A stretch of DNA of 63,814 bases, counting the filler, from Folioceros fuciformis (lineage: Eukaryota), in NCBI GenBank assembly GCA_049999805.1. It is 4 parts of 4 records of this genome, joined end to end, with 100 filler letters (N's around TTAATTAATTAA, not from the genome) between each part and the next. Parts side by side here need not be neighbours in the genome. Positions count along the whole stretch, not along the records: positions 1 to 20,703 come from JBNGIO010006337.1; 3 more parts are not named here. One strand, given 5' to 3'. The stretch's first letter is position 1. Each line of letters opens with the position of its first letter. The notes beneath the pieces were generated by a model that ran no database searches, was not told where the DNA came from, and saw nothing but the letters and a program-made list of their open reading frames with translations. The position numbers were made by a program, and so were the translations under genes. Below are positions 1 through 39,024 of the stretch, piece after piece.

Positions 1-274
1 GAGAGTATTTTTATTCAATATATTAAGTTTGATATCCTTCTAACTAAAGAGCATTGATCTCATCATATCCATAAGAGAGTATTTTTATTCAATATATTAA
101 GTTTGATATCCTTCTAACTAAGGAACATTGACCTCATCATATCCATAAGAGAGTCTTTTTATTCAATATATTAACTTTAATATCCTTCTAACTAAGGAAC
201 ATTGACCTCATCATATCCATAAGAGCGGAGTTTTATTTAATATATTAAGTTTGATATCCTTCTAACTAAGGAGC
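1..274. repeat. 74-bp AT-rich tandem repeat, about 3.7 copies, truncated by window start
   Basis: Unit GAGAGTATTTTTATTCAATATATTAAGTTTGATATCCTTCTAACTAAGGAACATTGACCTCATCATATCCATAA restarts at 1, 75, 149 and 223. Confidence 0.92.
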
Positions 275-3200
275 CCTATTCTTGCTAAGATGCACATGCT
301 AGATTGGCCTAATTGGCAAATGGTAGTGGAGCATGAATTTGAATGTTAGCTTGGAACTTGCTGCATTACTAAACCCAACAAACTTGTTAAGTTGAGGAAT
401 AATATATATATCTAAGCATTTGGAGGATCTAGATGATTTATAGGATTTAATTCATGTAGATTCTTAGAAGGATAGAGTTTAACACTTGTCTAGTTTGTGC
501 GTGGTTCCCTGTCAGATGAGATAAGCGCTAAGACCTATTAGTTCATGCCTGCCCCTAATTGACAAACTCTAACTCACAACTCATTCAATGGCTTGTCTTA
601 TGAAGCAAAATTGTTAACATTTAACAAGATATGACGATCTCTCAAAGATGCTTACTTCACTACATAGTCAACTTGTGTTATAACTCTATGGATTGTAATA
701 CATGCTTCACATCATGCTACTTATCCTCAAATAGTGGTCCTCCACTCTTAATAAGGAGGAGCTAGCTCTACTCTCTTGGCCCTTATGGCCTTCAACCCCG
801 CAACTAGGATTGGATCTACCTCTCTAGAATAGTACACCTCTCACCTTTGTTCTTGCTCCAACTCGAATTGTGTTGTTGCCACCCAAGGAAGGGGCTGTGA
901 TTAGTTGTAGCAAAGTTGTTGACTTGCGACAATAACCCTTCTAGAGAGAAGCTTCAAGTTGGCATCCCTAGCTATGATGGAACATTGGAGGCTAGCCTAA
1001 GAGAGGTAGGCTTCCACCCCGACCCCTTGGCCTCCTTTGAAGGGAACATCAAAAAGAAAAAAAATCAAGGGACATACAACTCATTGTGTGACCTGTCCAT
1101 ATCAATTATCCACGCATACCCCGGGTTATGCCTTGTACATCCTAGCTGATCAAGTAGAGTGTCACAATAGCTACCATAGCTGGCCATTGTGCGAGAACAA
1201 ACGCGGATTTTCCATACAAGTCCTCGTGAGAAGCTCTATTCTCTCAAACAAGCCCTCCCCGTTGATTTCCTGCAGGCTGTCTTTCCGTGGGAAACTTTAA
1301 GATGCAATTTGGAAGCGAGACCGCCCACAAGCATGGATGGCGTGGATGCAAGCAGGGTGAATCGGACGCGCTTGGGCTGAGTGACCATCGGCCTTGGTTG
1401 AGCTCGTGGTCTGGCCAAATGTGAGCTGCTTGGCTAAGCTCATGGCTTGCCAAGCTACGGGCGCCGTTTGGGCTGGGCCCTCGGCGTACACAGCTGCATG
1501 TCATGGTTGCGAGCATGGCTAAACTGCATGCGTTTGAGCTCTATTTCAAACGCCGCACCTGAATAGCTCGGGATGAATGTGTTTGCTCTTTTCCTTTGTG
1601 AGTGGCCCCGAAGCTGCCTGACCCCTGTGCAAGCTTTCGACTCGTTTTTGATCTCCCACATTCGCTTGTCGCCTTCCTCATTCTCAGGGTGTGGTCCAGC
1701 TAAGCTAGTCCCTCCAACATTCAAAATGATGAAATAATGCTTTTTTGGAGAAGTAAGCGGTAGGGTGGTCAATACAAACTAAACGCAGGTGGTGTCGCGA
1801 TGCGTCGGGCGATCCACTATGATCCCTCGTGGCCCGCCGGTTCCCGATGTGCTCACCGTGCCATCCATACATACCCCGGATGCTCGCATCGGCATGCGGC
1901 ATCGCTTCGCTTAGAAGTGGGAGACGGGCTGAGCACGGCGTGACAGTGTGGCTGGTGTTCATGGCACAGGTGGGACCGATCACAGGTGCAACGAGTGACT
2001 TGCAACTTTTTGCAAGCCGTTGGAGCGTGTTTACGTGTTTGGCCTAAATAAAGCACTGGTTGGTCTTTGCCCTGGCACGGCAGGGGATACGAGCCCGCAA
2101 TTTTATGAGTGATGTAGACCTGGATCGGAGGGTGATGGGCATACGGAAGAGGGGGCAAGGCGATGGAGACGCGGAGAGAGATGGCAGGAGCCGGTTGCAG
2201 GGGGTCCCCTTGGGATTCGAGGGCTCATGTGAGCGTCGTCACCTCTGTACTTGGTACTCGTACCACTTAGAGCCTGGCGGGTCGAACCGAGAGGCCTGAA
2301 GAGGAAAAGGGGGTTCGTGACTAGAGCCGTCCCAGGCTTTGTGCCCCTGTGATCTACTACGTACCTACCCCGGGGGCGGGAGTGTTGTGGTACGACAAAC
2401 AACGATGGGTTGGGTCCTTTTTGTCCCCTTTCCAGACGTGGCCCATTTCCTCCAACCCTTAAAACCCACCCTTAAAACCCAGGGGGCTGGGGCTAGGTTG
2501 GCTGGGCATTCTGCACTAGTCTATTGGAGCAAACTGTTCCTTCATCCAAGCCGCCCCAGTTTCCACGAATCCTGCTCCTTCACTGGCTGTCAAAGGATGG
2601 TCGTGCTACTTGTAGGCTTAGCTGTGCTCAATCTTCAGCGAAATTTGAAAGTAAACCGACCGGTGCCCGAAGACTTCTCTAAAAGCCATTGTACTATACA
2701 TACAAGACCCCCTGGACTCCACGGGCTGACTAAAGCCTGGAGACTTGGTTGCGGAAGTGGCAAGATTCGTCCGGATGATTTCAGTCTTTTGGCCATTGAC
2801 AAGAAGGGTACTTACTGCATGTATTGAATTCGTGTGGCCGCCGCGGGTAGGACGGCTGCAACATCGAATACCTGTACAGAGGCTGCTGGTTCCGACAGGT
2901 AAAGAGTTGACAAATGTGCAACCAGCGGGCGCGGTCTCCTACTGCCGGACGCACGGACATTATCTAAAGTCCGTTGGAGGCCGAACTGGGCTGCGCAGAT
3001 TTAGACAAAGTAGGTGACTTTGTGGGCCAAATGCATAGCAGCCGATTCGGGGGATGGCAATTGAGAGTCAAGCGCGGAATAGCAAAGCAATTTCGAGTTC
3101 GCCTTTTTTAGTAGCGTGTGGCCAGTGGCGTTGACAGACCGACGAAGCGCCAGGCAACAATGGCGTCTCACAACCGACAGGTCTCTGACAGATGACCAGC

Positions 3201-3619
3201 AAGGAAAGTAGCTGCCAGGGTGCCGAGGGTTTGTGGGCAGCTTCGCCCCGAACCGTGTTGAACCAATCCGACTGGTGAAGTTGGCGACTGGTGAAGTTGC
3301 CTAGCCAGAGGGGTTGGGAGCTCTATAAGGCGGGACTCTGTGGCCCGATTCCAGCACCTCACATGTCTGCAGCTCAACACCACCATAGCACACCACGAGC
3401 TGTACTGTGCTCTGACACCCACAATCGTCTTCCTCCGCATTCCAGGCTCCCAGCTGTCCGACACCAACACCGCGCCCGACCCCGATACCATCGCCACCCA
3501 CACAATTGCTACTGGTGTATCCAAATTGAGCGCCAGGCAGCTGCTGGATCTGGACTCCAATTCGACGATACTGGGGTCCAGCACCCAGAAGGCCCGCAGT
3601 TCCGGGTTCTGCTGCAGCG

Positions 3620-3985
3620 ATGGCGTCCAAAGCTCTTCACTTGGGCCGCGCGCGGGCACTCTTCTTCTGGTCGCTTCTGATGGTCGCATTTTCCGCAAAC
3701 TCTGCTCTAGGCGCTAGGAGGTCGGCCACCTTCAACAGCACGCCGGCACCAGCACCCTCTGAGGAGGGTACGCTGGCAGAATTCGAGGACGAGCGTGTGC
3801 AACTGGTGGGAGGGATTGAGTTCGGGACTGCGGACGCCCCAGCAGAGGACTTCGGACACCGCCCTCCTCCGGCCCCTGGCTCGGACCAATTCCTGGAGTC
3901 TCGAGGAAGTCTGAGGTTGCCTCCCGGTCTGCAGCGACGAGAGCTGCATTGCATAACCTCGATACCCGGGGGTTGCCCTCCTTGA
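3620..3985 (+). CDS. Small secreted peptide precursor (121 aa): signal peptide, acidic/Pro-rich prodomain, RREL site, C-terminal HCITSIPGGCPP
   Basis: ATG-initiated intronless ORF with hydrophobic N-terminus ending SALG; shares colinear motif blocks with the ORF at 5670-6065; TATAA at 3324-3328 upstream. Confidence 0.8.
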   Translation: MASKALHLGRARALFFWSLLMVAFSANSALGARRSATFNSTPAPAPSEEGTLAEFEDERVQLVGGIEFGTADAPAEDFGHRPPPAPGSDQFLESRGSLRLPPGLQRRELHCITSIPGGCPP

Positions 3986-5669
3986 AACTGCTACAATTGT
4001 CCTACAAGGATGGTATTTGCAGAGCGAACAGTGGGACATTTTCTTCGACTTCGTCTTCGTGTTCTTCGCCGCCCGCTGGGAGCTGAAGAGTAATTGCGAC
4101 CGGGCATCGGTATGTTTTTGCACTGTGAGCTTCCTTGCTGACTGGTGGCCACCAGTCGAACTGGGCTTGGCCTGGGCTACATTTATTCACTGCGAGATTC
4201 TCCAAGCTCAATTCTATTCGACAAAAAGGCCGAGACGAGCATCTGAAGAGAAAGTCCTGCAGGGTGCCAAGAACGGTTTCCCCTCTGACCACCAACTGCC
4301 GGGGGCACACCTCGGGTGCATCCCTCGCATGTGGACTACTCCCCCGGAGCTGACTCCGAGCCCGGAGTTGGAGATGGACAGGAGCATCCGACCCCTCCTA
4401 CTTACTAGGCATCTCTCATCATAAGCTAGGAAATGATGTGTAAAAATTCCCGATTTTGAAAGTGCACATTGCACATTGCGGAGTCTCAGGTTGCCTTACT
4501 AAGACGTAGGGTTCCCCTACTAAAATCTGAAAGATGAATTTTGCCGCTCCTCACAGCCGCTCGATCCCCATCCTGATGAAAACCGCGGGCCGAGACTTGG
4601 TCCGCACCCCAGGCAACATACACTGCCAGGTCTCTCTGGATACGCTTGGTCAATGCTTGTAAACGGACAGCGCCCTTAATTTAATGCCAGGACCACGACG
4701 ACTCCTCGCGCACGTCGGTTTGGTCAAGCGGTGATGTCACATAGGTCGTCACGTAGGATTTCCTGGCAGGTTGTCAATGGCCATTCCTTGAAGACGTCAA
4801 CGTGGCCCCTGCGCAGGTCCCTGCCCCTGCTCAGCTGTTTTTACCACATTAGACGATTTACGCTCCTGGCTGCGGTGGCTTGCAACTTGTGTAGCTAGAT
4901 CACAGTCTGAAAGGCGTTCACCGGGGTACTGCGTGTGCACGCTTTGACAGTATTCTCTGACAAGTGCACGATACAATTTCTGGCAGCCTCTCCTATCCTC
5001 CATTGGACTTTGGCGGCCAGGCTTCGCTTGGACGCTAGAGGGTAGCTGGTTTTCTTGCAAGCTTCATTTTTTCGTCAGGAATGGTTTGCATAATGTGTGT
5101 GTGCACTCTACCGTGTGCTCTTGACAGTGGGCCAGATGCATACTTTAAGGTTGACGTATCTTGATGGTTCACCGACCACTTGCAAAAGTTTAATCAGAGA
5201 CTCCAATCCGCTGTCAGAGATAGCCATTTCCATGACAACAAGTGTGCTGCACTGGCACTGGGTCACATGCCTTGTGCTTTTTAGTATAGGATTTGTGTGT
5301 GACGGTGTAACTGTAAACTGTGGTTTTTGCCCACTACTGCCACTGCACTGACCACTGTTAAACAATGAAAATCAAGGACGATTTTGTGCAGGTTTTGGAT
5401 TTCATTGATCTCTACAGCCATGCACGATTTTGTGCAGGTTCTGCTGCTCCATGCGAGCGGTGAGTCATACATGAATGTCCTAGAGGACCTAGTACAAGTA
5501 GCCAATGCGGCTCTTAACAAATTCCTAACCAAAAATCTTAGAAGTGCGTTGTTTGGCACTTTGAAGTTGGACGGACGTCAGTTGCAGATCGATCCGCCCT
5601 GTCGGGAATGCCGGCCCGAGCATACGGGCTTTCCCAACAGATAGAGCAGACGGGACCAGAAAAATTCAG

Positions 5670-6065
5670 TCAGGGGGAGCAGCCACCGGGTATTGAGGTC
5701 ACGCACAGCATCCTTCGCACATCAACATCGGGCGCCATTCTAGGACCTGGGGCCGGTGGGGCACCCTCCAACGCGAATCCACCATTGATCTCCGGAACAA
5801 AACTGCTTGCATCTGTGTCCGTGTCCGAGTCTCTGTCCATGTCTTCGTCTGCATCTTCCTCGGCTATTCCGAATCGGATTCCAGCTGGTACCATTGCAAT
5901 ACCAACGTCTTCGAAATGGTGCGCGTCGGGGCAGCCTATGGCCGGCGCCGCAGCGGGCGGACTATCATTGAAAGTGGTGGATTTTCTGATGGCCAGAACA
6001 CTCTCACTGGACATGGCAACGAGAAGAAGAAGCGTGACAACGGCCGGCAAAATTGAAGAAGCCAT
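5670..6065 (-). CDS. Small secreted peptide precursor (131 aa), paralog of 3620-3985: signal peptide, acidic prodomain, RRML site, C-terminal CVTSIPGGCSP
   Basis: MASSILPAVVTLLLLVAMSSESVLA signal peptide; shared motifs RxSxTFN, FED, GIxFG, PPAPG, RRxL and C-x-TSIPGGC-x-P-stop. Confidence 0.85.
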   Translation of the reverse strand: MASSILPAVVTLLLLVAMSSESVLAIRKSTTFNDSPPAAAPAIGCPDAHHFEDVGIAMVPAGIRFGIAEEDADEDMDRDSDTDTDASSFVPEINGGFALEGAPPAPGPRMAPDVDVRRMLCVTSIPGGCSP

Positions 6066-6333
6066 CCTGAAATTGCAGCTTCTTGGTCTGTTTCAACCTG
6101 ACACAGACGATGTCTTAGCAAGGCTGACGGGCTGTGGGCACTTGACAAATTGCTCCCTGCTCCCTGCTCCCTGCTCCTCCTTGCTTCCTGGGCACGAACA
6201 ATGGCCACTGAGCAAGTTGTTGCTTGCTGGGCAGTGGGTACTGGCAGTGCTGCTACCTCGTCTGGGGGATTGTCGCTCAGGACTGGCGTTGAGGAGGAAG
6301 GTATGATGTCAGTGAAGAAGTAGCAGAGCTCAA

Positions 6334-6339
6334 TTTATA
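6334..6339 (-). promoter_or_regulatory. Candidate TATA box of the minus-strand peptide gene
   Basis: TATAAA on the minus strand about 270 bp upstream of the ATG at 6065; position only. Confidence 0.35.
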
Positions 6340-7064
6340 CACTGCGGACAAGTTCGGGAAGGGAATTTCTGGAGTGCATTCAACACGGTTACAGAGGAAG
6401 CTGCTTCCTTCAGTGTCCTGTTTCAGCCAACTACCTTGCTTGTAAAGGCTGTCCTTGTATCTGTCGCATGTGGCCCGAAGATGTATCCTCTGAACGAGAC
6501 CGCGGAGCGCAATTCTTTTTTTTTTTGGAGAAGGAGTCAAATCCTGTTCAGTGGATACGAACTGGGAAGCATTCATATTTTAGTGTTCGGACCAATCATT
6601 TCATGGCAGCTCTCATGCCTGCAAGTTCGTACTTGGAAGGTGGACAGGTGCGTGGTAATCTCATGCCGCGCAGTTGTAGTCTGATTCTTGTCATGACTAA
6701 CAAAACATGCAAAATACCGTTAACGCCGGTCAAGGCCACAACGGCAAGAACACGGTACCGGACTTTGACTACTTGACAATCAAAATGCCAGCCAGATTAT
6801 GATAGTCTCGCTCCGGATAACCACGTTTAGTGCATCGTTCCCGGTAGTTAAATTGACAAACGTTTACCTTGTACCGTTAAAGACAAGTCCACACTTTTGC
6901 GCCTTTCTGCGGCTACAAAGTAATACACGTGTAACATAGGTGGTAGCTTTGAAATATCACACTGGTTAAAGTATTTTTTCACACTGGTTAAAGTATTTTA
7001 CGTTAATCCAGCTAGTTTTCTTAGTGCTTAAGATGTATATGGACCATATTAGTACAAGCTTACA

Positions 7065-10000
7065 TTTTTTTTCTTTTTTCGTGAAAAAATTCTGATTAAA
7101 TTGGAAAATACCTCCCACTACAATACAAAGGGAAAGTCCTACTAACGTATGTACCAAAATCAAGCACCATAGGAGAGGGGGAGCACTGGCCTTGAGTCCA
7201 AGACTTAAGACAAGGTGCTCAGAGAGCGCTCCCCTACACTATGATACCCTCCAACTGCCTAAGCCACTTATACTCACCCTCAAGGTCTCCCACGAACTTT
7301 AAGACTCATCGTTCCCAGGGGTATGAATAATTCCACCGCGTATCTTTCCCAGACGCTAGGAATCCCGCCATCCTCCAGTCTTTCCGCTTAAACTGCTTCC
7401 GATGGGATTGCTCGCATATGCGCCACATCAAAGCTTTCGATGAAGCTGAATCTTGTCCTCCATAGACCACCGCAGACCAGTTGACCCAAAGATGGAAAAG
7501 GCAAGAAGACCACAGTAAGCCCCACCATTGTGTTTTAAGGAGAGGTTTGCCCGAGGTTGCGTCCAGCCCAAATAAGGCTGATTGTGACATGATCTTGAGG
7601 TTAGCACCAGGAAAAATCAAACAGAGCCACCTGCCAACCTCCCTCCAAATCTCTTGGGCAAAGCTGCAATGATAGAACATGTGTTGGCTCTTGTTCGGGG
7701 CCCCAGCGGTGCACAGTCGACACACATCCTCCCCCATCGCAGCTAAAAGCCCATCCCACCAATTCACATTAGGCAAGCACGCTTGAAAAAAACACCAAAC
7801 TGTAGACCTGACCTTGGGGGGGATTCCTACGGACTTCCATAGAAGTTTGATGGCTTCCCTTTGTCGCCGTCTAGCGAGTTGCAATCGGGGAGCCATTGGC
7901 TGTTGTTGCTTGATTTTCTGCGCTTGCACTAACCAAAGGAACAAGTTCGCCGTAGGGAAGTTGAAGAAAGATCGAGGGATAGCCTTCTTGCACCCTGGAC
8001 GCCTAGGCCATTTATAGAGATTTGGTCTGAAGGTCAGAGTCCAATTCTCGCCCAGTCAGAACCAGCACTAAACCTTTGCTTTATCGGAAGGTAGTGGCCC
8101 AATTGGGTGTTCGCCTGGGATGCACCATCGCCCTACCCACACGGACTTGACGAGGATAGTGATAGCCCGCAATTCCCCTCCTCGGGCTTCCCCGTCATCC
8201 CTGCCTTGTTCTTCCAAAAATCCATCAAGCGACAAGACCTTGAATGACTGCAACGTCCCTTTGTCATCCGTTCTCTCGAGCCAAACCGCTCTACCTAGTT
8301 CTAATGCTTCCACTTGATCGTCCTCCTCCTCCGAGTCGACTCCCCTACTATCCATGGAGTATGCATACCACCCTTCACTTCCTATGGTAGGCTGTTGCCT
8401 TAAGAACTGTTGCACCTTTTCCTCTAGCCCCTCATGCATCCACGAGAAAATGAGTCTGACGTGCCGGGTCCCTAAGCCAAACTCCCCTTTGACCTCCTCT
8501 ATCTCCTTCTAACGAGCCTCTGACTTGTTCCACAGATGACCAAGCTGGATAACGCCTTTCCGACAAGCCAACCCAAAAATTTGTGACCAATAAACCCTTG
8601 ACATGAACTCCTGCACCCACAACCTCGAGAATCCCTGTAAAGGAATACCAAGAACATCATCCGCACAAGAAAAGTCGCCCGGGATAATGTATTGTTTAAC
8701 CTCCAGGTAACTGCTCCAGATGGAATTGAAGAGTGGGGAGCATTCTGCAGTGTCGAGAATCGGTTTGTCAGCCAGAATGTTGTCGGTATATCTCCTTCCC
8801 CTGGGAATAGCTTGGGTGCAGTCCAGGTGGTGTGTTAGCAGACTCTTCCAAGGATAGTACGCCGGATTAGCTGCCCTGACAACCCACTGAGCATGCAACA
8901 CTTTCATCTTGGCAACCAGGTCGACCACCTCGAGCCCCCCCAAACCACGCGCCTGAATAATATGCTGCCAAGCTACTTTAGAGCACCCAGCCGTACTGTC
9001 CCTGAATGCTTCCACAGGAAAGAGGTCAGCACCTGTTGTAGGCGCTTCGCTTCTATCTTGGAAGGGGCCCATAAAAAAAAATAATACCATAAAGAGGCAA
9101 TAAGGATATGATTAATCACCACTAGCCTACCTGCTAGGTTAAGCTCCAGCAACTGTAGACTAGCCGCTTTGCGAATGAACCTGAGGCAGACGTACTTCCC
9201 AATTTCCCCATTCTCATCCCCCTCTTGGAAGGGAAGCCCCAAATACTTGTGGGTAGAACCCAGAGTCACTCGCCTGATGTGATTAATACAGTGAGGAAGC
9301 TCCCCGTCCATGTGAAGACACATCATGCGCGTCTTGCTCCAATTCACCTTGTAGCCCGATAGTTCACCAAAGACCTTGACCTGTTGGAACAACGCTTTCA
9401 ATGAAGCCTCCTCAGCCAAAGAGAAGAGGAGAGTATCATCTGCGAATGCAGAGACCCTTAGTTGCGTTCCATCTGGGTTCCGTATACCCACCACTACCGG
9501 GTTTTGCTTGATTGCTCTAAGAAAGAAGTCAGTGACGATGATAAATAAGAACGGAGCGAGGGGGCAACCTTGACGTACCGACCAAGAGATGCCAAAGCGC
9601 TGTGTAAAAGACCCATTAACAGCCACCTTGGCTCCTGCGTCTTCACACAAAATGGCTATCCATCTGCAGAAATTGTTCCCAAACTCGAAGCTACGCAGAA
9701 ACCGCCACAGGAAATGCCACTCAACAGAATCATAAGCCTTGTAAAAGTCAAGGGAAATGAAAACAACGACTTTCTTCTGTACCTGAGTGTTGTACTTAGC
9801 TTCCCTCAGGAGTAGTAGGTTATCCAAAATGCACCTATTTTGAATGAACCCTCGCTGCTCTTTCTCAATCTAATCATCAAGAAAGGGTGTAATTCGGTTA
9901 GCCAGTACCTTAGCAATCACTTTGTACCTGGTAGTAAGCAAGGTAATCGGGCGCCAATTGGAGATTGATAAGCTGGCGTCTTGCTTAGGGAGTAGGGAGA

Positions 10001-11372
10001 TAACCCCCATATTGAACCAGCTCCCCATGCTACCTTCTTCCCAAAACATACTAACCGCTTCCATGAATAACGGATGCATAAATTCCCACCCCCACAGCAA
10101 GAACTCGGGAGGAATACCATCATGTCCCGGGGATTTATCCCTCGGCATCCCCTTCAGGGCCTGGAACACCTCGTCAGCTGTTATCGGCTTATCCAGAGCC
10201 CTACACTAGTCATCAGACACTTTGGCCGAAAGCACACCATATGAAGAAGACCAAAGTCGTTCCCACCCTGCCACCTTCCCAACACTGGAAAAAATGCCAA
10301 CAAAGAAGAGGGTAATAAGAGTTTTTAAACCTTCGAGCGATTCTTGCACCACGCCTCGCGCGTCTGGGAGGGCAGGATTGCGCGTTCGATGCCGGTTAGA
10401 GGCCACCTTATTGAAGAAGAATTTAGAGGGGTTGTCCCCCTCCCTCACCCACTTGACTTTGGCCCGCTTGAACCAACCTCTGGCCCTGTCTTCCTCCAAC
10501 TTGGCCAAAGCGCACTGCACCTCTATTTTCTTGGCCTCTTCCGCACTTGTGAGATCCTAGTCCTCATAGCTCCTATGTAACCAGCATAGTTCCTCCCTCA
10601 AAAAACATTCTTGCTGGCGTTGTTCTCGTGCACGTTGAACCCCTAGCCTCCTCAAACACCTAGTCGCCTCATTGTTAGCACACATGACCACCGCATTTTC
10701 TTCCCCCTGTTCAACTCCCTCCCAGATGTTTTTGATATCTTCAAGGACACCTTTTTCCTTCAATAAGGATGTGTTCATCCAAAAATTTTGCATATGCCTC
10801 CTTGGGCGCTCACCTTCCGGAGCAAGCCCCAAGTGCAAGCTAATGGGGGGGTGGTCGGATAGAATCGTACTAGCAAGAATACTGTACGACTGTACGAAGG
10901 CCAATCGCCCTGAAGGTAAATAAAACCTATCCAACCTGTGCGCTCCCAAATTCTGTTGTTGTAGATTGGACCAGCTGAACATCAAGGAGTGTGGTTGGCG
11001 ATGGGCCGGGAGGGCCACCCAAGGATCTTGCACAGCCAGGACCGTGTCTCTCAGCTCCTGCCAAGACAAAGGCACTGCTCGTAAATCTACTAGGCTATCC
11101 CCTCGAATGTCCTCACGGCGTTCAACAAAGTTGAAGTCGCCAACCAGAATCCACGGGATCTGCTCATCAAGCTGATCCCGCAGCCTACACCACATGATAC
11201 TCCTGTCAATGGCAGCATTAGGCGCATAAATATTGCAGATTACAACTAGACCTTGAGGAGTTTGCAGCACCAACCACACAAACCTCCCCTGCTCATCTTG
11301 CCCCGACTCCAGGATGTTGTGGGTTTGCTTTGGGTGGACTGTAATGGACACGCCACCGCGGGTCGCTGAAAC
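7065..11372 (-). mobile_element. L1/Tx1-type LINE, 5'-truncated, degenerate ORF2 (APE endonuclease, RT, C-terminal zinc finger) with A-rich tail
   Basis: APE motifs NIYAPN, GDFN, RLDRFY, SDHPPI (10557-11351); RT motifs KSPGHDG, NWRPITLL, LDFYKAYD, VRQGCPLAP, FADD, KYLG (8973-10169); CRLC...HMFYHC (7306-7944); T-run at 7065-7079; several stops and frameshifts. Confidence 0.93.
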
Positions 11373-12101
11373 TCATTGAGAAGACCTCTCTCCATCTCTT
11401 GGATCCTCTGCTCTAGTTGCTGCCCATTCTGTTTGACTAGGAAACAAGAGATTCATGACAGCAATGGGCTTGGGCATCCTAGCCTCAGACACTGACTTGG
11501 GCTGCGCCAGATTATCCTTTGTTTTGAGGTTAAGGGACAATCTTTGAAGCCTTACAGACTTGCGAACAACGAGAGCAATCCTCCTGTCCTGGCCATCTAA
11601 AAGCCCCTCGACTTCACCCACTGCCACGTCTGGACTCCATATCCTGCCTTTTGCCCAAGGCACATCCAAGGACCACCTCCACTCTGGGGTAAGTGGCATA
11701 TTGGGTCCAAAACCTTGTTTTAGCCGTAGGTCAGCAAAAAGTTGACCATCCCTCTAGTATATACCACTGAAGAATTCCACCTCCTTTCCTTCCTTACCAA
11801 CTGGAACCCCTCTGGCTGACAAGAATTCAAATATCCTTTCCTGCCCTGTATGCAACTGGTGCAGTGTAATGATAAGGGATAACTGCTCCCTCCCAGGGGG
11901 CCTCTTGTCATAACCAGGAAAGAATAAAGGTCGTTAACCTTTCTCGTAACCATTAGGTTAATCTCAAACTGTCTGCCTTTCCCCCTTGTTGTACCTTCCG
12001 CCTTCTTGATCTCTTGGCCACTCAGCAAAAAAGATACCTCCTGCACTGGAGGAGGATGCTCATCCTGTGCCTCCTTAACCTGCATTGGGGCCTTTTCCAA
12101 G

Positions 12102-15100
12102 GCATTCCTGCCCTCCCAGACACATGAGGCGTGGTGCAAGAATCGCTCGAAGGTTTAAAAACTCTTATTACCCTCTTCTTTGTTGGCATTTTTTCCAGTG
12201 TTGGGAAAGTGGCAGGGTGGGAACGGCTTTGGTCTTCTTCATATGGTCCACTTTCGGCCAAAGTGTCTGACGACCAGCACAGGGCTCTGGATAAGCCGAT
12301 AATAGCTGACGAGGTGTTCCAAGCCCTAAAGGGGATGCTGAGGGATAAATCCCCGGGACATGATGGTATCCCTCTCGAGTTTCTACTGTGGGGGTGGGAA
12401 TTTATGTAGCCGTTATTCATGGAAGGGGTTAGTATGTTTTGGGAAGAAGGTAGCATGGGGAGTTGGTTCAATATGGGGGTTATCTCCCTGCTCCCTAAGC
12501 AAGACGCCAGCTTATCAATCTCCAAATGGCGCCTTATTACCTTGCTTACTACCACGTACAAGGTGATTGCTAAGGTACTGGCTAACTGAATTACACCCTT
12601 TCTTGATGATTGGATTGAGAAAGAGTAGCGAGGGTTCATTCAATATAGGTGCATTCTGGACAACCTATTACTCTTGAGGGAAGCTAAGTACAACACTCAG
12701 GTACAAAAGAAAGCTTCCGTTTTCATTTCCCTTGACTTTTACAAGGCTTATGATTCTGTTGAGTGGCATTTCCTGTGGCGGTGTCTGTGTAGCTTCGTGT
12801 TTGGGAACAATATCTGCAGATGGATAGCCATTCTGTGTGAAGACGCAGGAGCCAAGGTGGCTGTTAATGGGTCTTTTACGCAGCGCTTTGGCATCTCTCG
12901 GTCAGTACGTTAGGGTTGCCCCCTTGCTCCGTTCTTATTTATCATCGTCACTAACTTCTTTCTCCGAGCAGTCAAGCAAGACCCAGCAGTGGTGGGTATT
13001 CGGAACCCAGATGGAACGCAGCTAAGGGTCTCTACATTCGCAGATGATACTCTCCTCTTCTCTTTGGTTGAGGAGGCTTCATTGAAAGCGTTGCTCCAAC
13101 AGGTCAAGGCCTTTGGTGAACTATCGGGTTGCAAGGTGAATTGGAGCAAGACGCGCATGATGTGTCTTCAGATGGATGGGGAGCTTCCTCAGTGTATTAA
13201 TCACATTAGGCGAGTGACTTTGGGTTCTACCCACAAGTATTTGGGGCTTCCTTTCCAAGAGGGGGATGAGAATGGGGAGATTGGGAAGTACGTTTGCCTC
13301 AGGTTCATTTGCAAAGCGGCTAGTCTACAGTTGTTGGAGCTTAACCTGGTAGGTAGGCTGGTGGTGATTAATCATATCCTTACTGCCTCTTTATGGTATT
13401 ATTTGTTTTTATGGGCCCCTTCCAAGATAGAAGTGAAGCACCTACAACAAGTGCTGACCTCTTTCCTGTGGAAGCGTTCCGAGGACAGTACGGCTGGGTG
13501 CTCTAAAGTAGCTTGGCAACATATTATTGAGGCGCGTGGTTTGGGGGATCTTGGGGTGGTCGACCCGGTTGCCAAGATGAAAGTGTTGCATGCTCAGTGG
13601 GTTGTTAGGGCAGCTGATCTGGCGTACTATCCTTGGAAGAGTCTACTAACACAACATCTGGACTGCACCCAAGCTATTACCAGGGGAAGGAGATCTATCA
13701 ACAACATTTTGGTTGACAAACTGATTCTCGACACTGCAGAATGCTCCCCACTCTTCAAGTCCATTTGGAGCAGTTACCTGGAGGTTAAACAATACATTAT
13801 CCCGGGCAACTGATGTTATTGGTATTCCTTTGCAGGGATTCTCGAGGTTGTGGGTGCAAGAGTTCAGGTCAAGGGTTTATCGGTCACAAATTTTTGGGTT
13901 GGCTTGTCGGAAAGGCGTTATCCAGCTTGGTCATTTGTGGAACAAGTCAAAGGCTCATTGGAAGGAGATAGAGGAGGTCAAAGGGGAGTTTGGCTTAGGG
14001 ACCCAACATGTCAGACTCATTTTCTCGTGGATGCATGTGGGGCTAGAGGAAAAGGTGCAACAGTTCTTAAGGCAACAACCTACCATAGGAAGTGAAGGGT
14101 GGTATGCATACTCCATGGATAGTAGGGGAGTCGACTCGGAGGAGGAGGATGATCAGGTGGAAGCATTAGAACTAGATAGAGCGGTTTGGCTTGAGAGAAC
14201 GGATGACAAAGGGACGTTGCAGTCATTTAAGGTCTTGTCGCCTGAAGGATTTTTGGAAGAACAGGGCAGGGATGACGGGGAAGCCCGAGGAGGGGAATTG
14301 CGGGCTATCATTGTTCTTGTTAAGTCCGTGTGGGCAAGGCGATGGTGCATCCCATGCGAACGCCCAATTGGGCCACTACCCTCCGATAAAGCAAAGGTTC
14401 AGTGCTGGTTTCGACTGGGCAAGAATTGGACTCTGACCTTTAGAGCAGATCTCTACAAATGGCCTAGGCGTCCAGGGTGCAAGAAGGCTATCCCTCGATC
14501 TTTCTTCAACTTCCCTACGGCAGACTTGTTCCTTTGGTTAGTGCGAGTGCAGAAAATCAAGCAACAACAGCCAATGGCTCCCCGATTGCAACTTGCTGGA
14601 CGGCGACAAAGGGAAGCCATCAAACTTCTATGGAAGTCCGCAGGAATCCCCTCCAAGGTCAGGTCTATAGTTTGGTGTTTTTTTCAAGCTTGCTTGCCTA
14701 ATGCGGATCGGTGGGATGGGCTTTTAGCTGCGACGGGGGAGGATGTGTGTCGACTGTGCACCGCTGTGGCCCCGAACAAGAGCCAACACATGTTCTATCA
14801 TTGCAGCTTTGCCCAAGAGATCTGGAGGGAGGTTGGCAGGTGGCTCTGTTTGATTTTTCCTGGTGCTAACCTCAGGATCACGTCACAATCATCCTTATTT
14901 GGGCTGGACGTAACCTCGGGCAAACCTCTCCTTAAAACACAATGGTGGGGCTTACTGTGGTCTTCTTGCCTGTTCCATCTTTGGGTCAACTAGTCTACGG
15001 TGGTCTATGGAGGACAAGATTCACCTTCATCGAAAGCTTTGATGTGGCGCATATGAGAGCATTTGTTGATTGCAACAAAAGCTTGGGATCAATCCCGTCG

Positions 15101-20960: not shown

Positions 20961-21842
20961 TCCCTGCCAGCAGTTGATCCTCCTGTACACACGAAACCAC
21001 CAAGCCCGCCTTATCATAGCATCCATTAGCCCCTAAACCTTGAAATGCACTCTTGTGTGAAGAACCCGCCATCGAAGGGAATGCCTATTGCAGTGACCAT
21101 GACCACTGTCACGGAACCACCTGATTGACATATGAATGACGGAATCTAAACAGCGGGCATAGCCAGCTCGCAGTGCATGTCTCCTAGGCATAAGGCAGCT
21201 TGCTTGATCATCTGTGCTGTCCCGAGCCCCACCCAAGATAGAGTCGTCATCGTGGTGACCTTACCAATCCTGCATACACCTGGACATGAACAAGTTGCAG
21301 TAAGAAACCCGGAAGCCAGTACTATGAGTTGCAACAAGAATAGCTGCAACCTCTGACGTGTATTGCAAAAACCTACCACAAGAACTCCAGTCGTCATAAG
21401 CGAATGTATTGCAGGTGCGAAGTCCATTCGTGGCTTGCACTGGGAGGCCATAGGGGCTTTCTGTATGCACCACGAAAGCAAAGCTTAGTAGCCGAGAGGT
21501 AGCAAGAAACACACAAATAATAAGGCCTCGACAACATTGTTCAGGATATACCTTTGTGATCTGTTTTTCGCGAGGCTGTCAATGACGGAGGTGGAGGGCG
21601 TTGGTATGGATGGCAAGAAGGGGGGGGGGAGGGCTGAGCGCATGAGCCCAAGCAAGCTTGGCGGTTGGGGGAAAGCGTGTGCGTCGGAAGGGACAAGGCA
21701 GGCGAAACCCTAAACCCCGAGCACGAAAGGCAGAGAAAGGGCGGCGAGAGATTTGGCTAGGCTAGTGGCAGCTTTTTTTTGATCCGAGGAAACGTGTTTG
21801 AAGTGGCCTCTAGACAAGTTTTTTCATATGCATCTGTCAAAT

Positions 21843-22207
21843 GTCCGATTTAGTTTTGGCCTCCAAACTCGCGTACACGCCAGAGGGGTCCGGTTTGGTT
21901 TTGGCCTCCAAACTCGCGTACGTGCCAAAGGGGTCCGGTTTAGTTTTGGCCTCCAAACTCGCGTACGCGCCAAAGGGGTCCGGTTTGGTTTTGGCTTCCA
22001 AACTCGCGCCAAAGGGGTCCCGTTTGGTTTTGGCCTCCAAACTCGCGTACGCGCCAAAGGGGTCCCGTTTGGTTTTGGCCTCCAAACTCGCGTACGCGCC
22101 AAAGGGGACACACCTCTTTGGTTTTGGCCTCCAAGCTCGCGTACGCGCCAAAGGGGACACACAATCGCCAAAGGGGACACACAATCGCCAAAGGGGACAC
22201 ACAATCG
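21843..22207. repeat. 45-bp minisatellite (about 7 copies, one with a 6-bp deletion) followed by three 20-bp units
   Basis: Unit GTCCGGTTTGGTTTTGGCCTCCAAACTCGCGTACGCGCCAAAGGG, then CGCCAAAGGGGACACACAAT x3. Confidence 0.92.
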
Positions 22208-22546
22208 GTATGTTCATAAACCCTAAACCCATGTTCTAGAGAGAGGGGGCGTGTCCCCTTTGGTATGCCATACCCACCATCAGGTAACGTGTACAATAGA
22301 GGGTTCTGGAAGGACATTTTGTAGGCCGGTATATATTATAGGAACCTAGAGTGGGCCCTTAGTNNNNNNNNNNTTTTGTAGGCCGGTATATATTATAGGA
22401 ACCTAGAGTGGGCCCTTAGTTCTTGAACTCTGTTCTCCATAATGTTTGAAAGTCTCGCAGTCTAGGTGTCTATGGTGGCCTCATGGGCTGTTTAGGGTGT
22501 GGGTTTACAGTAGGCAGAAATCACTTCTCCGTCCTTGTGTTCCCCT

Positions 22547-24330
22547 TCATGGTCGGCCTTTACAACTGCAACCACCACTGGAGAATCGATGCACACGGTA
22601 CCCATCCCTCACAACAATGTCTCTCTGCTCAAGCCTTGATATGACCTCCGTGGAACTGCGGCAATCACTGCACATGCGTAGATTCTTCGTTACCACCAGA
22701 CGGATCCTGTGGGAGTGTTCAACAGGCCAAACGCCAGCGCCAGCTTCTCAGCGTGCCCGCACAGTGCATCCTCCTTTTCCTTCTCACCCAATGGCTTCAA
22801 CACCAACCTTGTCTGCGGTACGTGGCCCCCTTCCTGCTTTACACAAGCATTCGTGCTCTCGACCTTGAGCAGAAGCGCAATATCCTCTCTCCCTTCTCCT
22901 ACCAAGAACCTATGTACCTGCTTATTTACCTCGATGGTTGCCACTGCAGGTTTCTTGTTAGCTCCTGCGACCATTCTCTGTGTTTCGATCCTGTCTACCT
23001 CTCACCTACCTGCATCTGCGAAAGCATTGGCCATGAGCACATGCGCAGACGTGTTTTGAGGGTCCAGCCTCACGATGCTTTCAAAACACCACCTCGCCCT
23101 CTCTATATCCTCGTGACTTCTGCAAGCGTGCAACAAGGCCGTCAAGCCCACAACATTACTTTCTCCCCCCTCACATGATAACATCTTCTCAGCCTCATCC
23201 AAATGGCCTGCACGCCCAAGAAGATCAACCATGCAAGTGTAATGCTCAATAGTAGGTTTGATGCCATGCTGTGCAGCCATGGAATCGAAGTACATGAGAC
23301 TATCATGGACCAGTCCCACGTGACTGCATGCTACCAAAAGGCAAGCGAAAGTAGCATCATGGGGCTGAATACCGGCAGCTAACATGTCCTCGAAACAAGC
23401 TAGTGCCTTGTGACCTTCGTCACAGGAACCGTACCCGGCAATCAGCGCATTCCATGTCACCACACTCTTTGTGGCCAAGCTGTCAAAACCTGGCGTGCAT
23501 CTTCCGCTTCGCCACACTTTGCATGCATGTCCACCAGGCTTGTGCCCACCACCACTTTGTCCAGCAGTCCTCTTCCCACAATCTGTGAGTGCAGCTGCCT
23601 GCCCTTCTGCAACGCACCAGTGCTTCCACAGGCCTTCAGAAGGCAAGAGAAAGTAACATCGTCAGCTACAATGACACCCGGCTCCTCCATTTGTCCATAC
23701 ACAAGAAGCGCCTCTTGGCCCAGTCCTTGCTGTACGTACCCAGCTATCAGAGCATTCCATGTCACCACATTCTTGTTCGGCAAGCTGTCAAAAACCTGGA
23801 GTGCATCTTCCAATTCGCCACATTTTGCATACATCTCCACCACGCAAGTGCCCACCACTATGTCATCCAGAAGATTCCTTTCAACAATCTGCAAGTGCAG
23901 CTGCCTGCCTTTCAGGATTCCGCGCTGAAGCAGCGCAGAGGAGGTCCGGGGAGTCCCACACTCTCCATGTATCTTCCAAGCGACCCCACTTTACGTTTGC
24001 AGACATGTTCACCAAACTGCAGGCTACAAACATATCATCTTCATGTCCTCGTTCCTTAGTTTGCTCATGAAACTCCTTTCCTCGCTTTAAAGAGGTTCTG
24101 CCTGAATTTGCAGATGCCTGCAGACGCAGCTAAATGTCACGGAATCAGGTGTAGCCATACCCGTCCTCTTGCATAGCACTGTACAGGCGAAGGGCTTCCT
24201 GGCCCGTGCCGTGCTGGGGAGTTTCCTGCTATCATGGCATTCCACGTTTCCACAATAATTTTCTGACCTAATTCATCAAACACAGCTGCCACACTCGTCG
24301 TGCATCCTGCAAGCTGCAAAATCACAGAGA
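22547..24330 (-). pseudogene. PLS-class PPR protein with E and DYW:KP domains (GRP C-terminus), putative U-to-C RNA-editing factor, disrupted
   Basis: PPR motifs (VVTWNALIAGY, DDVTFSCLLKAC, HYTCMVDLLGRAG); KKPAVATIEVNKQVHRF, GHVP, HAEKLALAFGLL, TKNLRMCSDC, VRDGYRVHRF, CSCKGRP-stop (22547); frameshifts near 22700, 23495 and 23900, in-frame TGA at 23002. Confidence 0.9.
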
Positions 24331-35491: not shown

Positions 35492-36152
35492 AAGCAGTTC
35501 AGCAGTAAGACAGAATTAAAGTTTTGCATGAGTATACAAGTTTTTACCTTTGGAAATGATAAAGGGAACTTATCATTTGGTTGTGTAAAGATAACTGGTG
35601 AATTTTTTTTTCTTGTAAGAATGACGAAAGTTGTGTAGGGAAAACTCATTTGGGTGAGGAGAGTGAAATAAAGAAGAACAGTTTGGAGAAATCAGAAGAG
35701 AAAGAGGAGTTGGGCGAGCAAACTTTTCGAAGGAGGACCAAGAGTTTTATAAGAAGGAGGAAGAACAAAAAGAAAGAGGACAAGAAATTTACAATAATAG
35801 GATGTTCACAACCAAAGAATTGGAGTCAACTCGAGGCATTCTGTGATGATTTGATAGCGCTTGAATGACACTTTTCAGATGTGAAAAGTTTAGTGAAGTG
35901 CTTAGAGAGAAAAGAGGGAGAGGTGAACTTAGTGTGGAATGCCACCAGGCGTCTTGTTTTTGAGCTAGTGTATTCTCCACTGTATCCGTGCTGGTTTGGA
36001 TATAAACCAATGTGAGACTTGATTAGTTGTAAAAGTTATCAAACTTTGGCATGACAATCTTTATTTGAACTGGTGCTTAACTTTTAAACATAAGAAGACC
36101 TGTGATAAAAAATGTTAGAGTGACTCAGCCAAGTGTTAGATGAGTTGAAGTA

Positions 36153-38924: not shown

Positions 38925-39024
38925 GTTTTAGCTGGATGATAAAATTCAGCTTTGTACAAAGGAAGCAGTTTGTAAACTTGAACTTGTGTGTAATAAACTT
39001 GTGACATTGAGTTTGTCTAAGTAT

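What the first reader, a model, noticed from the sequence alone, without database searches (positions are those of the whole stretch)
3620..6065. Convergent pair of paralogous secreted precursors defining a candidate two-cysteine peptide family (RRxL-(H)-C[IV]TSIPGGCxP)
Seen: two intronless tail-to-tail ORFs 1.7 kb apart. Each has a signal peptide, a diverged acidic prodomain with shared islands (RxSxTFN, FED, GIxFG, PPAPG), an RRxL site and an almost invariant 11-residue C-terminus with two Cys seven residues apart. Established: RRxL is the site-1 protease (S1P/SBT6.1) site of RALF-type precursors, and a variable prodomain with a conserved C-terminus is typical of plant peptide hormones. Inference: the mature product is a disulfide-cyclised ~11-12-mer ligand. 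It is not CLE, CEP, IDA, RGF, PSK or RALF. The nearest resemblance I can recall is the angiosperm SCREW/CTNIP loop (CTNIPG...CP), so it is either a new family or a deep CTNIP-like lineage in a seed-free plant.
Basis: partly seen in the sequence, partly recalled or inferred. Interest (0 to 1): 0.85.

Follow-up and report, generated by a model that had tools for sequence, protein, structure and literature searches.

The report
Paired secreted cysteine-loop peptide precursor genes
Two neighbouring, transcribed plant genes encode small secreted precursor proteins whose best-conserved part is a short cysteine-closed loop at the very end, probably a new lineage-restricted secreted peptide and not a member of the flowering-plant CTNIP family.

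Summary
ORF A (3620-3985, +, 121 aa) and ORF B (5670-6065, -, 131 aa) are true paralogs (BLASTP E 2e-15). Their differences fall mostly on third codon positions.

Both appear to be intronless genes. One run of the same organism, guessed to be RNA, holds one gap-free contig over each gene and nothing between them. Each contig starts 46-49 nt after a conserved TATA box, with a shared 12-nt element further upstream.

Each protein has a signal-peptide-like start, a conserved N-glycosylation sequon, an acidic region predicted disordered, an RRxL site and a C-terminal C[IV]TSIPGGCxP. Synonymous sites are near saturation, yet this tail is 9/11 identical (omega about 0.09 versus 0.35 elsewhere).

No relative turned up in any protein, structure, family, metagenome or paper search.

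A neighbouring DYW:KP-type PPR gene places the organism among hornworts, lycophytes or ferns. The CTNIP/SCREW link is not supported: the loop length, motif register and flanking IDA-like motif all differ. A Bowman-Birk/SFTI-1-like loop is an equally weak alternative.

Best reading: a new family of processed, disulfide-closed secreted peptides. Its function is untested, and so is conservation in other species.

The parts
3620..3985 (+). ORF A, 121-aa precursor including the stop codon
3620..3712 (+). ORF A signal-peptide-like N-terminus (residues 1-31; cleavage after A-L-G is inferred)
   Evidence: Hydropathy maximum 2.38 at residues 14-22. AF2 helix over residues 3-36. The -3/-1 rule was read by eye; SignalP was not run.
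3734..3742 (+). ORF A N-glycosylation sequon N-S-T (residues 39-41), in the same alignment column as the sequon of B
3935..3946 (+). ORF A R-R-E-L (residues 106-109), candidate S1P/subtilase site
   Evidence: motif definition from PMC13082318
3950..3982 (+). ORF A C-terminal 11 residues, C-I-T-S-I-P-G-G-C-P-P (candidate disulfide loop)
5670..6065 (-). ORF B, 131-aa precursor including the stop codon
5991..6065 (-). ORF B signal-peptide-like N-terminus (residues 1-25; cleavage after V-L-A is inferred)
   Evidence: Hydropathy maximum 3.21 at residues 8-16. The -3/-1 rule was read by eye.
5961..5969 (-). ORF B N-glycosylation sequon N-D-S (residues 33-35)
5706..5717 (-). ORF B R-R-M-L (residues 117-120), candidate S1P/subtilase site
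5673..5705 (-). ORF B C-terminal 11 residues, C-V-T-S-I-P-G-G-C-S-P (candidate disulfide loop)
3373..4543 (+). Transcript-like contig over gene A (1171 nt, collinear with the genome, no mismatch, no joint). 5' UTR of 247 nt without ATG; 3' UTR of about 558 nt.
5374..6293 (-). Transcript-like contig over gene B (920 nt, collinear, no mismatch, no joint). 5' UTR of 228 nt without ATG; 3' UTR of about 296 nt.
3324..3328 (+). TATAA box of gene A, 49 nt before the 5' end of the contig
6335..6339 (-). TATAA box of gene B, 46 nt before the 5' end of the contig
3237..3262 (+). Conserved upstream element of gene A (GCAGCTTC ... AACCGTGTTGAA)
   Evidence: Inverted repeat I1. A shared exact 12-mer has shuffle P 0.012.
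6379..6404 (-). The same upstream element of gene B

Best explanation
The two genes are an old inverted duplication. They encode secreted prepropeptides of a family with no detectable relative in the databases searched.

Proposed course of events:
1. The signal peptide takes the precursor into the secretory pathway.
2. The acidic, Pro/Ala-rich, N-glycosylated middle part is a disordered pro-region.
3. An S1P/SBT-type subtilase cuts at the conserved RRxL. This releases an 11-12-residue C-terminal peptide: (H)C[IV]TSIPGGC[PS]P.
4. The two Cys form a disulfide that closes a 9-residue ring stiffened by Pro-Gly-Gly.
5. The peptide acts outside the cell, most likely as a ligand (phytocytokine-like signal).

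Shown: paralogy, the coding frame, transcript-like contigs, conserved promoters, the motif, and stronger amino-acid constraint on the C-terminus.

Inferred: signal-peptide cleavage, cleavage at RRxL, disulfide formation, and extracellular activity as a ligand.
For: Paralogy and coding:
- BLASTP E 2e-15.
- Differences at codon positions 1/2/3 are 47/31/68, p 0.0008. The sense frame pair scores best, 142 against 91.

Old duplication with protein-level constraint:
- pS is 0.67 over 105 codons.
- Omega is 0.33 overall, 0.09 for the last 11 codons and 0.35 for the other 94.
- Four synonymous differences sit inside identical S, G, G and P codons of the loop.

Transcription:
- Run X3, of the same organism and guessed to be RNA, holds exactly 2 contigs on 3000-6800.
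- They cover 3373-4543 and 5374-6293, with 0 mismatches and no joints.
- X3 has nothing on 3000-3372, 4544-5373 or 6294-6800. The DNA run X1 covers all 30 depth bins of the stretch, those parts included.

Promoters:
- TATAA lies 49 and 46 nt before the contig 5' ends.
- A shared element, GCAGCTTC..AACCGTGTTGAA, lies upstream of both. Shuffle P for the 12-mer is 0.012.
- The first ATG of each contig is the ORF start. P(no ATG in the UTR) is 0.10 and 0.05.

Precursor anatomy:
- A hydrophobic N-terminal core, net charge -5 and -12 after it, and a conserved sequon.
- AF2 models a helix over residues 3-36, and 76 of 121 residues have pLDDT under 50.
- RRxL lies directly before mature RALF23 and is cut there by AtS1P. 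RxxL/RxLx sites are cut by SBT6.1 and SBT3.5 (PMC13082318, passages).
- Single-disulfide cyclic plant ligands exist, namely SCREW/CTNIP and DEP (PMC13261660, parts 1-2 of the text read).
Against: - There are only two sequences, both from one genome. No orthologue is known, so preferential conservation of the C-terminus across species is untested. Within the pair, an 11-column window with 9 identities somewhere in the alignment is expected 34% of the time.
- Conservation is not confined to the tail. R.S.TFN, FED, GI.FG and PPAPG are also invariant, so the middle part may be more than a spacer.
- The peptide ends in Pro. From my recall, ligands of subfamily-XI LRR receptor kinases typically end in His or Asn; no call tested this.
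- B carries an unpaired third Cys at residue 45.
- The 'RNA' label of run X3 is a guess by the tool. Contigs give no strand and no expression level.
- No peptide, cleavage, disulfide, receptor or activity has been observed.
Confidence: 0.45

Rival explanations
1. Deep CTNIP/SCREW lineage. The loop would be a homologue of the angiosperm C-T-N-I-P cyclic phytocytokine, perceived by an HSL3/NUT-like LRR receptor kinase together with a SERK co-receptor.
For: - Both are small secreted precursors under 150 aa with a C-terminal single-disulfide loop followed by two residues and the stop codon.
- T-[N/S]-I-P lies inside the loop in both. Ile61 and Pro62 of CTNIP4 insert into a hydrophobic receptor pocket, and Pro62 is highly conserved.
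Against: - CTNIP4 is Cys58-Cys68, with 9 residues between. The confident CTNIP set was filtered for 9-11 spacing. Here there are 7.
- The T-x-I-P is shifted by one residue relative to the first Cys.
- Asn60, which contacts the receptor and whose mutation markedly reduced co-receptor recruitment (N60A/F), is Ser here.
- The PVPxSGPN/S motif (P49-N56) that abuts the loop and fills the IDA-type pocket is absent. The 12 residues before the first Cys are LPPGLQRRELH and MAPDVDVRRML.
- CTNIP4 ends C-H-N (His69 and Asn70). These end C-P-P and C-S-P.
- CTNIPs were found only from Amborella upward, and the NUT superclade arose in gymnosperms. The window's organism carries a DYW:KP PPR, a type restricted to hornworts, lycophytes and ferns.
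- No sequence-level test was possible. I held no CTNIP sequences, and the supplements with the alignments are closed.
Confidence: 0.06
2. Stand-alone Bowman-Birk-like reactive loop. The 9-residue disulfide ring would be a canonical (Laskowski-type) serine-protease inhibitor loop. It would have arisen independently, as in sunflower SFTI-1 or frog-skin BBI-like peptides, and would serve in extracellular defence.
For: - BBI loops are a 9-residue ring, C-T-P1-S-X-P-P-X-C (PMC7760496, abstract). The ring here has the same size.
- In that register it has Ser at P1', Ile at P2' and Pro at P3', as in SFTI-1.
- SFTI-1's second Cys is followed by F-P (Table 2 passage). Here it is followed by P-P or S-P.
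- Minimal one-disulfide BBI-like loops evolved independently at least twice (SFTI-1 and amphibian peptides).
- Replacing P4' Pro with Ala in SFTI-1 keeps trypsin inhibition, so Gly at P4' need not be fatal.
Against: - Only 2 of the 4 fixed non-Cys positions match: Ser and the first Pro do, Thr at P2 and Pro at P4' do not.
- P1 would be Thr. Searches list Lys/Arg, or Phe, Tyr, Leu, Trp, at P1.
- Pfam Bowman-Birk gave no hit at E<=10. The PDB sequence search gave 0 hits at E<=10.
- The resemblance was noticed after the fact, among many known loop motifs.
- RRxL processing is typical of signalling-peptide precursors. SFTI-1 is excised by asparaginyl endopeptidase.
- No inhibition data exist.
Confidence: 0.12
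3. Unprocessed small secreted glycoprotein. The whole post-signal-peptide chain of 90-106 residues would be the product: an acidic, Pro/Ala-rich, N- and possibly O-glycosylated apoplastic or cell-wall protein. The C-terminal Cys loop would be only one of several conserved patches.
For: - Conserved islands are spread along the chain (R.S.TFN with a sequon, FED, GI.FG, PPAPG).
- Omega of the prodomain is 0.23, so it too is constrained.
- Ala-Pro, Ser-Pro and Thr-Pro dipeptides right after the sequon resemble arabinogalactan glycomodules (my recall; not tested).
- The third Cys in B could form intermolecular bonds.
Against: - The RRxL directly before the most conserved segment is the textbook arrangement of a processed precursor.
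- The middle part has a 23-residue and a 10-residue indel between the paralogs.
- The middle part is predicted disordered.
Confidence: 0.22
4. No functional product. The two ORFs would be transcribed but decaying or non-coding remnants in a transposon-rich region.
For: - The window is transposon-rich.
- No homologue was found in any database.
- The Atlas recognition score is below the level reached by most known families.
Against: - Both ORFs are intact after divergence to pS 0.67, with omega 0.33 and a third-position excess of differences.
- Both have conserved TATA boxes and an upstream element.
- Both have ATG-free 5' UTRs.
Confidence: 0.05

Closest known systems
CTNIP/SCREW phytocytokines (Arabidopsis CTNIP4/SCREW2; monocot DEP peptides), ligands of HSL3/NUT-clade LRR receptor kinases
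   Same: Small secreted precursor. The bioactive part sits at the C-terminus. A single intramolecular disulfide closes a loop that contains T-x-I-P and is followed by two residues and the stop codon.
   Different: - The ring has 7 rather than 9 or more residues between the Cys.
- The motif is shifted by one residue, and Asn is Ser.
- There is no IDA-like PVPxSGPN/S segment before the loop.
- The C-terminus is Pro, where CTNIP4 ends His-Asn.
- The receptor clade is reported only from gymnosperms onward, and the peptides from Amborella onward.
- Homology could not be tested by sequence.
Bowman-Birk inhibitor reactive loop and its minimal mimics (SFTI-1 from sunflower PawS1; amphibian BBI-like peptides)
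   Same: A 9-residue disulfide ring. Ser-Ile-Pro lies in the P1'-P3' register. An x-Pro follows the second Cys, as in SFTI-1. The loop is a stand-alone, one-disulfide peptide cut from a larger secreted precursor.
   Different: - P2 is Ile/Val, not Thr.
- P1 would be Thr.
- P4' is Gly, not Pro.
- There is no BBI domain (2-3 Cys; Pfam 0 hits).
- There is no Asx for AEP-type excision or head-to-tail cyclisation. An RRxL site is present instead.
S1P (SBT6.1)-processed plant peptide precursors such as RALF23 and GLV1/CLEL6, and PROSCOOP12 (SBT3.5)
   Same: Signal peptide, variable pro-region, and an RRxL motif immediately upstream of the conserved C-terminal peptide.
   Different: There is no RALF, RGF or SCOOP motif, and no Pfam RALF hit at E<=10. 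The released peptide would be far shorter than RALF and would hold one disulfide, against two in RALF (the RALF count is my recall).

Membership tests
CTNIP/SCREW | Small (<150 aa) precursor with a predicted signal peptide | tested here: met
   121 and 131 aa. Hydrophobic N-terminal core and AF2 helix over residues 3-36. SignalP itself was not run. Criterion from PMC9191895.
CTNIP/SCREW | Two conserved Cys with 9-11 residue spacing (Cys58-Cys68 in CTNIP4) | tested here: not met
   C111-C119 and C121-C129, with 7 residues between. Criterion.
CTNIP/SCREW | C-T-N-I-P (or C-T-N-N-P in DEP) starting at the first Cys | tested here: not met
   C-[IV]-T-S-I-P: one extra residue after the Cys, and Ser for Asn. 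Only T, I and P are shared, out of register. Motif.
CTNIP/SCREW | IDA-like PVPxSGPN/S segment directly N-terminal to the loop | tested here: not met
   The preceding residues are ...LRLPPGLQRRELH and ...PRMAPDVDVRRML. Feature from PMC13261660.
CTNIP/SCREW | Cognate HSL3/NUT-clade receptor in the same genome | not testable with these tools
   No genome is held. The literature places the clade's origin in gymnosperms. The window's organism is a hornwort, lycophyte or fern by its DYW:KP PPR.
CTNIP/SCREW | Significant profile or sequence similarity to family members | not testable with these tools
   No CTNIP sequence or model was available. The PDB sequence search, which could hold a CTNIP4 chain of 20 residues or more (the paper cites entry 9T26), gave 0 hits at E<=10. 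Supplementary alignments are closed.
Bowman-Birk inhibitors (PF00228) and BBI-like loops | Nine-residue disulfide-closed loop | tested here: met
   The ring is C plus 7 residues plus C. Definition from PMC7760496.
Bowman-Birk inhibitors (PF00228) and BBI-like loops | Fixed residues of C-T-P1-S-X-P-P-X-C | tested here: not met
   Ser (P1') and Pro (P3') are present. Thr (P2) is replaced by Ile/Val, and Pro (P4') by Gly. P1 would be Thr.
Bowman-Birk inhibitors (PF00228) and BBI-like loops | Multi-disulfide BBI domain | tested here: not met
   Pfam gave 0 families at E<=10. There are only 2 (A) or 3 (B) Cys.
Bowman-Birk inhibitors (PF00228) and BBI-like loops | Inhibition of a serine protease by the standard mechanism | not testable with these tools
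   This needs a bench assay. The one complex job was not folded.
S1P-processed peptide precursors (RALF23 type) | RRxL (RxxL/RxLx) immediately upstream of the conserved mature peptide | tested here: met
   RREL, then H, then the loop in A. RRML, then the loop in B. Definition. Actual cleavage is untested.
RALF (PF05498) | RALF domain | tested here: not met
   Pfam gave 0 families at E<=10.
Generic plant small secreted peptide precursor | Signal peptide, then a variable disordered region, then a conserved C-terminal motif | tested here: met
   but conservation is measured on only two paralogs.

The most novel reading that the evidence does not exclude
This would be the first single-disulfide cyclic peptide family of a seed-free land plant (probably a hornwort). 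An 11-12-residue ring peptide would be released at RRxL. It would either signal through a still unknown receptor, or inhibit proteases through a loop that converged on the Bowman-Birk/SFTI-1 geometry. Either way it would have arisen independently of the seed-plant NUT-SCREW/DEP module.
Probability: 0.3. Interest if true: 0.7.

Novelty: new variant of a known kind. Interest (0 to 1): 0.42.

Why it matters
Few single-disulfide signalling peptides have been characterised in plants; Bai et al. name DEPs, with SCREW/CTNIP now shown to be one too (PMC13261660). Their receptor clade is reported to begin in gymnosperms.

A transcribed, constrained, RRxL-flanked Cys-loop precursor pair in a hornwort, lycophyte or fern genome would give a concrete and cheap test: an 11-12-mer that can be synthesised. 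It would address whether cyclic peptide signals, or minimal protease-inhibitor loops, arose independently in seed-free plants.

For now it remains a candidate, based on two paralogs in one genome.

Tried and rejected
Homologue searches, all blank:
- The search for homologous proteins with ORF B: 160 word candidates, none at E<=10.
- The same with alignment A1: 1921 candidates, none.
- The same with residues 82-121 of ORF A: 2 candidates, none. All three cover only proteins of about 66-230 aa.
- phmmer of ORF A against 1.84 billion representatives: 0 at E<=0.001.
- PDB sequences: 0 of 177,635 at E<=10.
- Pfam: 0 families for either ORF at E<=10.
- These searches cannot see an 11-residue motif on its own. 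Even the window's own proteins were not in the collections, so the blanks do not show that the family is absent from related plants.

Metagenome scans:
- The search for related loci used patterns from the prodomain (TFN.. and ..FED..), not from the tail. 593 pattern matches, none confirmed.
- A degenerate pattern for C[IV]TSIPGGCxP plus stop: 0 matches.

Papers:
- 0 papers hold TSIPGGC, SIPGGC, CITSIPG or CVTSIPG.
- A search on small secreted peptides in bryophytes showed nothing matching in the 12 of 206 titles and abstract openings listed.
- 'KPAxA' together with DYW: 0 papers.

ESM Atlas:
- Best scores were 0.81 (unnamed Streptophyta clusters) and 0.77 (PF10950 Organ_specific), both below the 0.9 lead level.
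- Pfam did not confirm PF10950. Rejected.

Other blanks:
- No whole genome is held, so further copies and receptors could not be sought.
- Runs X5 and X6 (other organisms of the same study) gave nothing at 85% or more nucleotide likeness. This says nothing about diverged orthologues.
- No listed holder is on record as RNA. X3 is RNA only by the tool's guess.
- Rfam: 0 matches over the window.
- The search of earlier findings: nothing relevant.
- AF2 on the two-sequence alignment gave no fold beyond the signal-peptide helix, so no fold search was run.
- Complex prediction of the C-terminal part with a bacterial serine protease as stand-in target was not folded. No verdict.
- James et al. 2017 on Selaginella BBIs is not held. 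I know it only from a reference list.
- Supplements were closed. The CTNIP alignments of Rhodes et al. and the SCREW/DEP-like peptide table for 38 species in PMC13261660 may bear on whether seed-free plants have such peptides. I did not see them.
Full report
**1. The observation**

They are tail to tail, with 1684 nt between their stop codons.

- BLASTP of one against the other gives 54.7 bits, E 2e-15, 43/129 identities.
- MAFFT gives 47 identical residues in 105 ungapped columns.
- The last 11 residues are CITSIPGGCPP and CVTSIPGGCSP, 9/11 identical, with seven residues between the two Cys.
- RREL, then His, precedes the first Cys in A. RRML precedes it directly in B. At the nucleotide level CGA-CGA/CGA-AGG and CTG/CTG line up best with a one-codon (His) indel (codon table).
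- A six-frame scan of all 63.8 kb finds the motif only at these two places.

Two corrections apply.

- B has a third Cys, at residue 45.
- With two sequences the excess conservation of the tail is only moderately significant. P is 0.010 for the last 11 columns taken a priori, but 0.34 for some window of that size anywhere in the alignment.

**2. Are they genes?**

Several lines say yes.

(a) Differences fall on codon positions 1/2/3 as 47/31/68 (chi-square p 0.0008). The sense/sense frame pair scores 142, against 91 for the next best pair.

(b) The duplication is old (pS 0.67), yet both frames are intact.
- Nei-Gojobori omega is 0.33 overall, 0.09 in the last 11 codons and 0.35 in the other 94.
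- Four synonymous differences sit inside identical Ser, Gly, Gly and Pro codons of the loop.
- The tail is therefore held by selection on the protein and is not explained by recent gene conversion.

(c) Three runs hold the stretch. I laid X3, X1 and two other-organism runs of X3's study, X5 and X6.
- X3 is a 2017 run of the same organism that the tool guesses to be RNA.
- It has exactly two contigs on 3000-6800: 1171 nt covering 3373-4543 and 920 nt covering 5374-6293.
- Both are complete within the stretch, with no mismatch, gap or joint.
- X3 has nothing on 3000-3372, 4544-5373 or 6294-6800. The DNA run X1 covers all 30 depth bins of the stretch, those parts included.
- This is the pattern of two separate intronless mRNAs. 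The caveats are that the RNA label is a guess and that contigs give neither strand nor level.

(d) The two upstream regions share promoter features.
- Both carry a GCAGCTTC...AACCGTGTTGAA element (A 3237-3262, B 6404-6379). It was first seen as inverted repeat I1.
- Both carry a TATAA box (A 3324-3328, B 6339-6335).
- The contig 5' ends lie 49 and 46 nt after the TATA box.
- A shared exact 12-mer has shuffle P 0.012.

(e) Neither 5' UTR (247 and 228 nt) contains an ATG, so the ORF start is the first ATG of each contig. Shuffle P is 0.10 and 0.05.

**3. Anatomy of the products**

- Both start with a hydrophobic core. The Kyte-Doolittle 9-residue maximum is 2.38 in A and 3.21 in B.
- AF2 models that start as a helix over residues 3-36.
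- Small residues sit at -3/-1 (ALG|AR in A, VLA|IR in B). This was read by eye; SignalP was not available.
- After it come a basic pair (RR in A, RK in B), an N-glycosylation sequon in the same column (NST and NDS), and a short Ala/Pro/Ser/Thr stretch.
- An acidic region follows, with net charge -5 and -12. It contains indels of 23 and 10 residues.
- AF2 predicts that region to be disordered: 76 of 121 residues have pLDDT under 50, and the mean is 52.1.
- Then come PPAPG, the RRxL and the Cys loop.

**4. What organism?**

The window is transposon-rich. It holds a copia gag/integrase at 45.8-48.7 kb, LINE-type RVT_1 plus zf-RVT at 7.3-15 kb, and a retroelement with a PHD finger near 42 kb.

A PLS-class PPR gene lies at about 22.5-24.0 kb on the minus strand.
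- It has PPR repeats, an E motif and a DYW deaminase domain.
- Its translation shows K-P in place of the PG box, H-A-E at the active site and a C-terminal G-R-P.
- According to PMC9478123 (passages), these are the marks of the DYW:KP type.

**5. Search for relatives**

Nothing was found.

- Protein searches.
- PDB sequences.
- Pfam.
- Metagenome scans.
- Motif strings in papers.
- ESM Atlas: best 0.81 and 0.77, below the 0.9 lead level.

These blanks show there is no close, full-length relative in the collections. They do not show absence from related plants. An 11-residue motif is below the reach of whole-database E-values, the window's own proteins were not in the collections, no plant genome set was available, and no genome is held for this window.

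**6. Mechanism**

RRxL directly before the conserved C-terminal segment is the arrangement of RALF23 (INRRIL|ATRRY, cut by AtS1P/SBT6.1). RxxL/RxLx sites are also cut in GLV1/CLEL6 and PROSCOOP12 (PMC13082318, passages).

The best-supported reading is a prepropeptide:
1. The signal peptide is removed.
2. A subtilase cuts at RRxL.
3. An 11- or 12-residue peptide is released.
4. Its two Cys close a 9-residue ring stiffened by Pro-Gly-Gly.

Secretion, cleavage, the disulfide and any activity are all inferred. I put the ligand reading first. The processing site and overall precursor layout are those of signalling peptides, and single-disulfide cyclic ligands are now established in plants.

**7. 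Comparison with CTNIP/SCREW**

From the papers:
- CTNIP4 has Cys58-Cys68.
- C-T-N-I-P starts at the first Cys, and the protein ends His69-Asn70.
- An IDA-like PVPxSGPN/S segment (P49-N56) abuts the loop and is needed for high affinity.
- The confident CTNIP set was filtered for 9-11 Cys spacing, and CTNIPs were found from Amborella upward.
- The NUT superclade 'initially emerged in gymnosperms'.

Here:
- The ring has 7 residues between the Cys.
- T-S-I-P is one residue out of register.
- Asn is Ser.
- The flanking IDA-like motif is absent.
- The C-terminus is Pro.
- The organism is seed-free.

Three defining features were tested and not met, so I do not file the genes as CTNIPs. What remains is a functional analogy: a C-terminal single-disulfide loop in a small secreted precursor.

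**8. A second resemblance: the Bowman-Birk loop**

The Bowman-Birk reactive loop is C-T-P1-S-X-P-P-X-C, nine residues (PMC7760496, abstract and passages). Its minimal mimics are SFTI-1 and frog-skin peptides, which arose independently.

- Shared: the ring size, Ser-Ile-Pro in the P1'-P3' register, and x-Pro after the second Cys as in SFTI-1.
- Not shared: P2 is Ile/Val where BBI has Thr, P1 would be Thr, and P4' is Gly.

This resemblance is as weak as the CTNIP one and was found after the fact. I keep it as a rival at 0.12. A complex prediction with a stand-in protease was not folded by the tool.

**9. Verdict**

- The prepropeptide interpretation is the best reading, at about 0.45. The inhibitor variant adds 0.12 and the CTNIP variant 0.06.
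- An unprocessed small glycoprotein remains a serious rival, at 0.22.
- The CTNIP link is not supported.
- Novelty: a new family within the known kind 'plant small secreted peptide precursors'.
- Interest is moderate. The candidate is clean and cheap to test, but it rests on two paralogs from one genome, with no cross-species or functional data.

Noticed in passing
window 22545-24000 (-): A PLS-class PPR gene with an E motif and a DYW deaminase domain of the DYW:KP type (K-P for the PG box, H-A-E active site, C-terminal G-R-P). The type is reported only from hornworts, lycophytes and ferns and is linked to U-to-C RNA editing. As assembled, the reading frame is broken by an in-frame stop after the E motif and by at least two frame changes, so it may be a pseudogene or carry assembly errors. 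A run of N lies just downstream.
   Followed up: partly
window 3237-3262 and 6379-6404; 3324-3328 and 6335-6339: The two paralogs keep a common promoter layout: a GCAGCTTC..AACCGTGTTGAA element followed by a TATAA box. This holds despite near-saturated synonymous divergence, which suggests a conserved cis-regulatory element worth testing. Gene A has a 21-nt tandem duplication between the element and the TATA box.
   Followed up: partly
window 36000-43000 (+): A long stretch with low GC (0.39-0.43) and very strong positive GC skew (up to 0.46). It carries large ORFs with no Pfam match, followed by retroelement-like ORFs and an integrase-like ORF ending in a PHD finger. It is probably a large retroelement of unusual composition.
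   Followed up: no
window 45814-48744 (-); 7306-15000: A copia-type element (gag, Pol beta-barrel, integrase, SH3-like domain) and LINE-type reverse transcriptase fragments with zf-RVT on both strands. The peptide gene pair sits in a transposon-rich neighbourhood.
   Followed up: no
window 1-272 and 21780-22340: Tandem repeats. One has a 74-nt period at the window start (3 overlapping 124-nt copies). The other is a short-period array near 22 kb that reads as repeated GLQTRVRAKGVRFGF-like units in several frames.
   Followed up: no
window 3168-3713 (-) and 5542-6306 (+): Long antisense open frames overlap both peptide genes (181 and 254 codons from stop to stop). The antisense frame pair scores 91, against 142 for the sense pair. 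They are most likely by-products of GC-rich coding sequence and not genes.
   Followed up: partly
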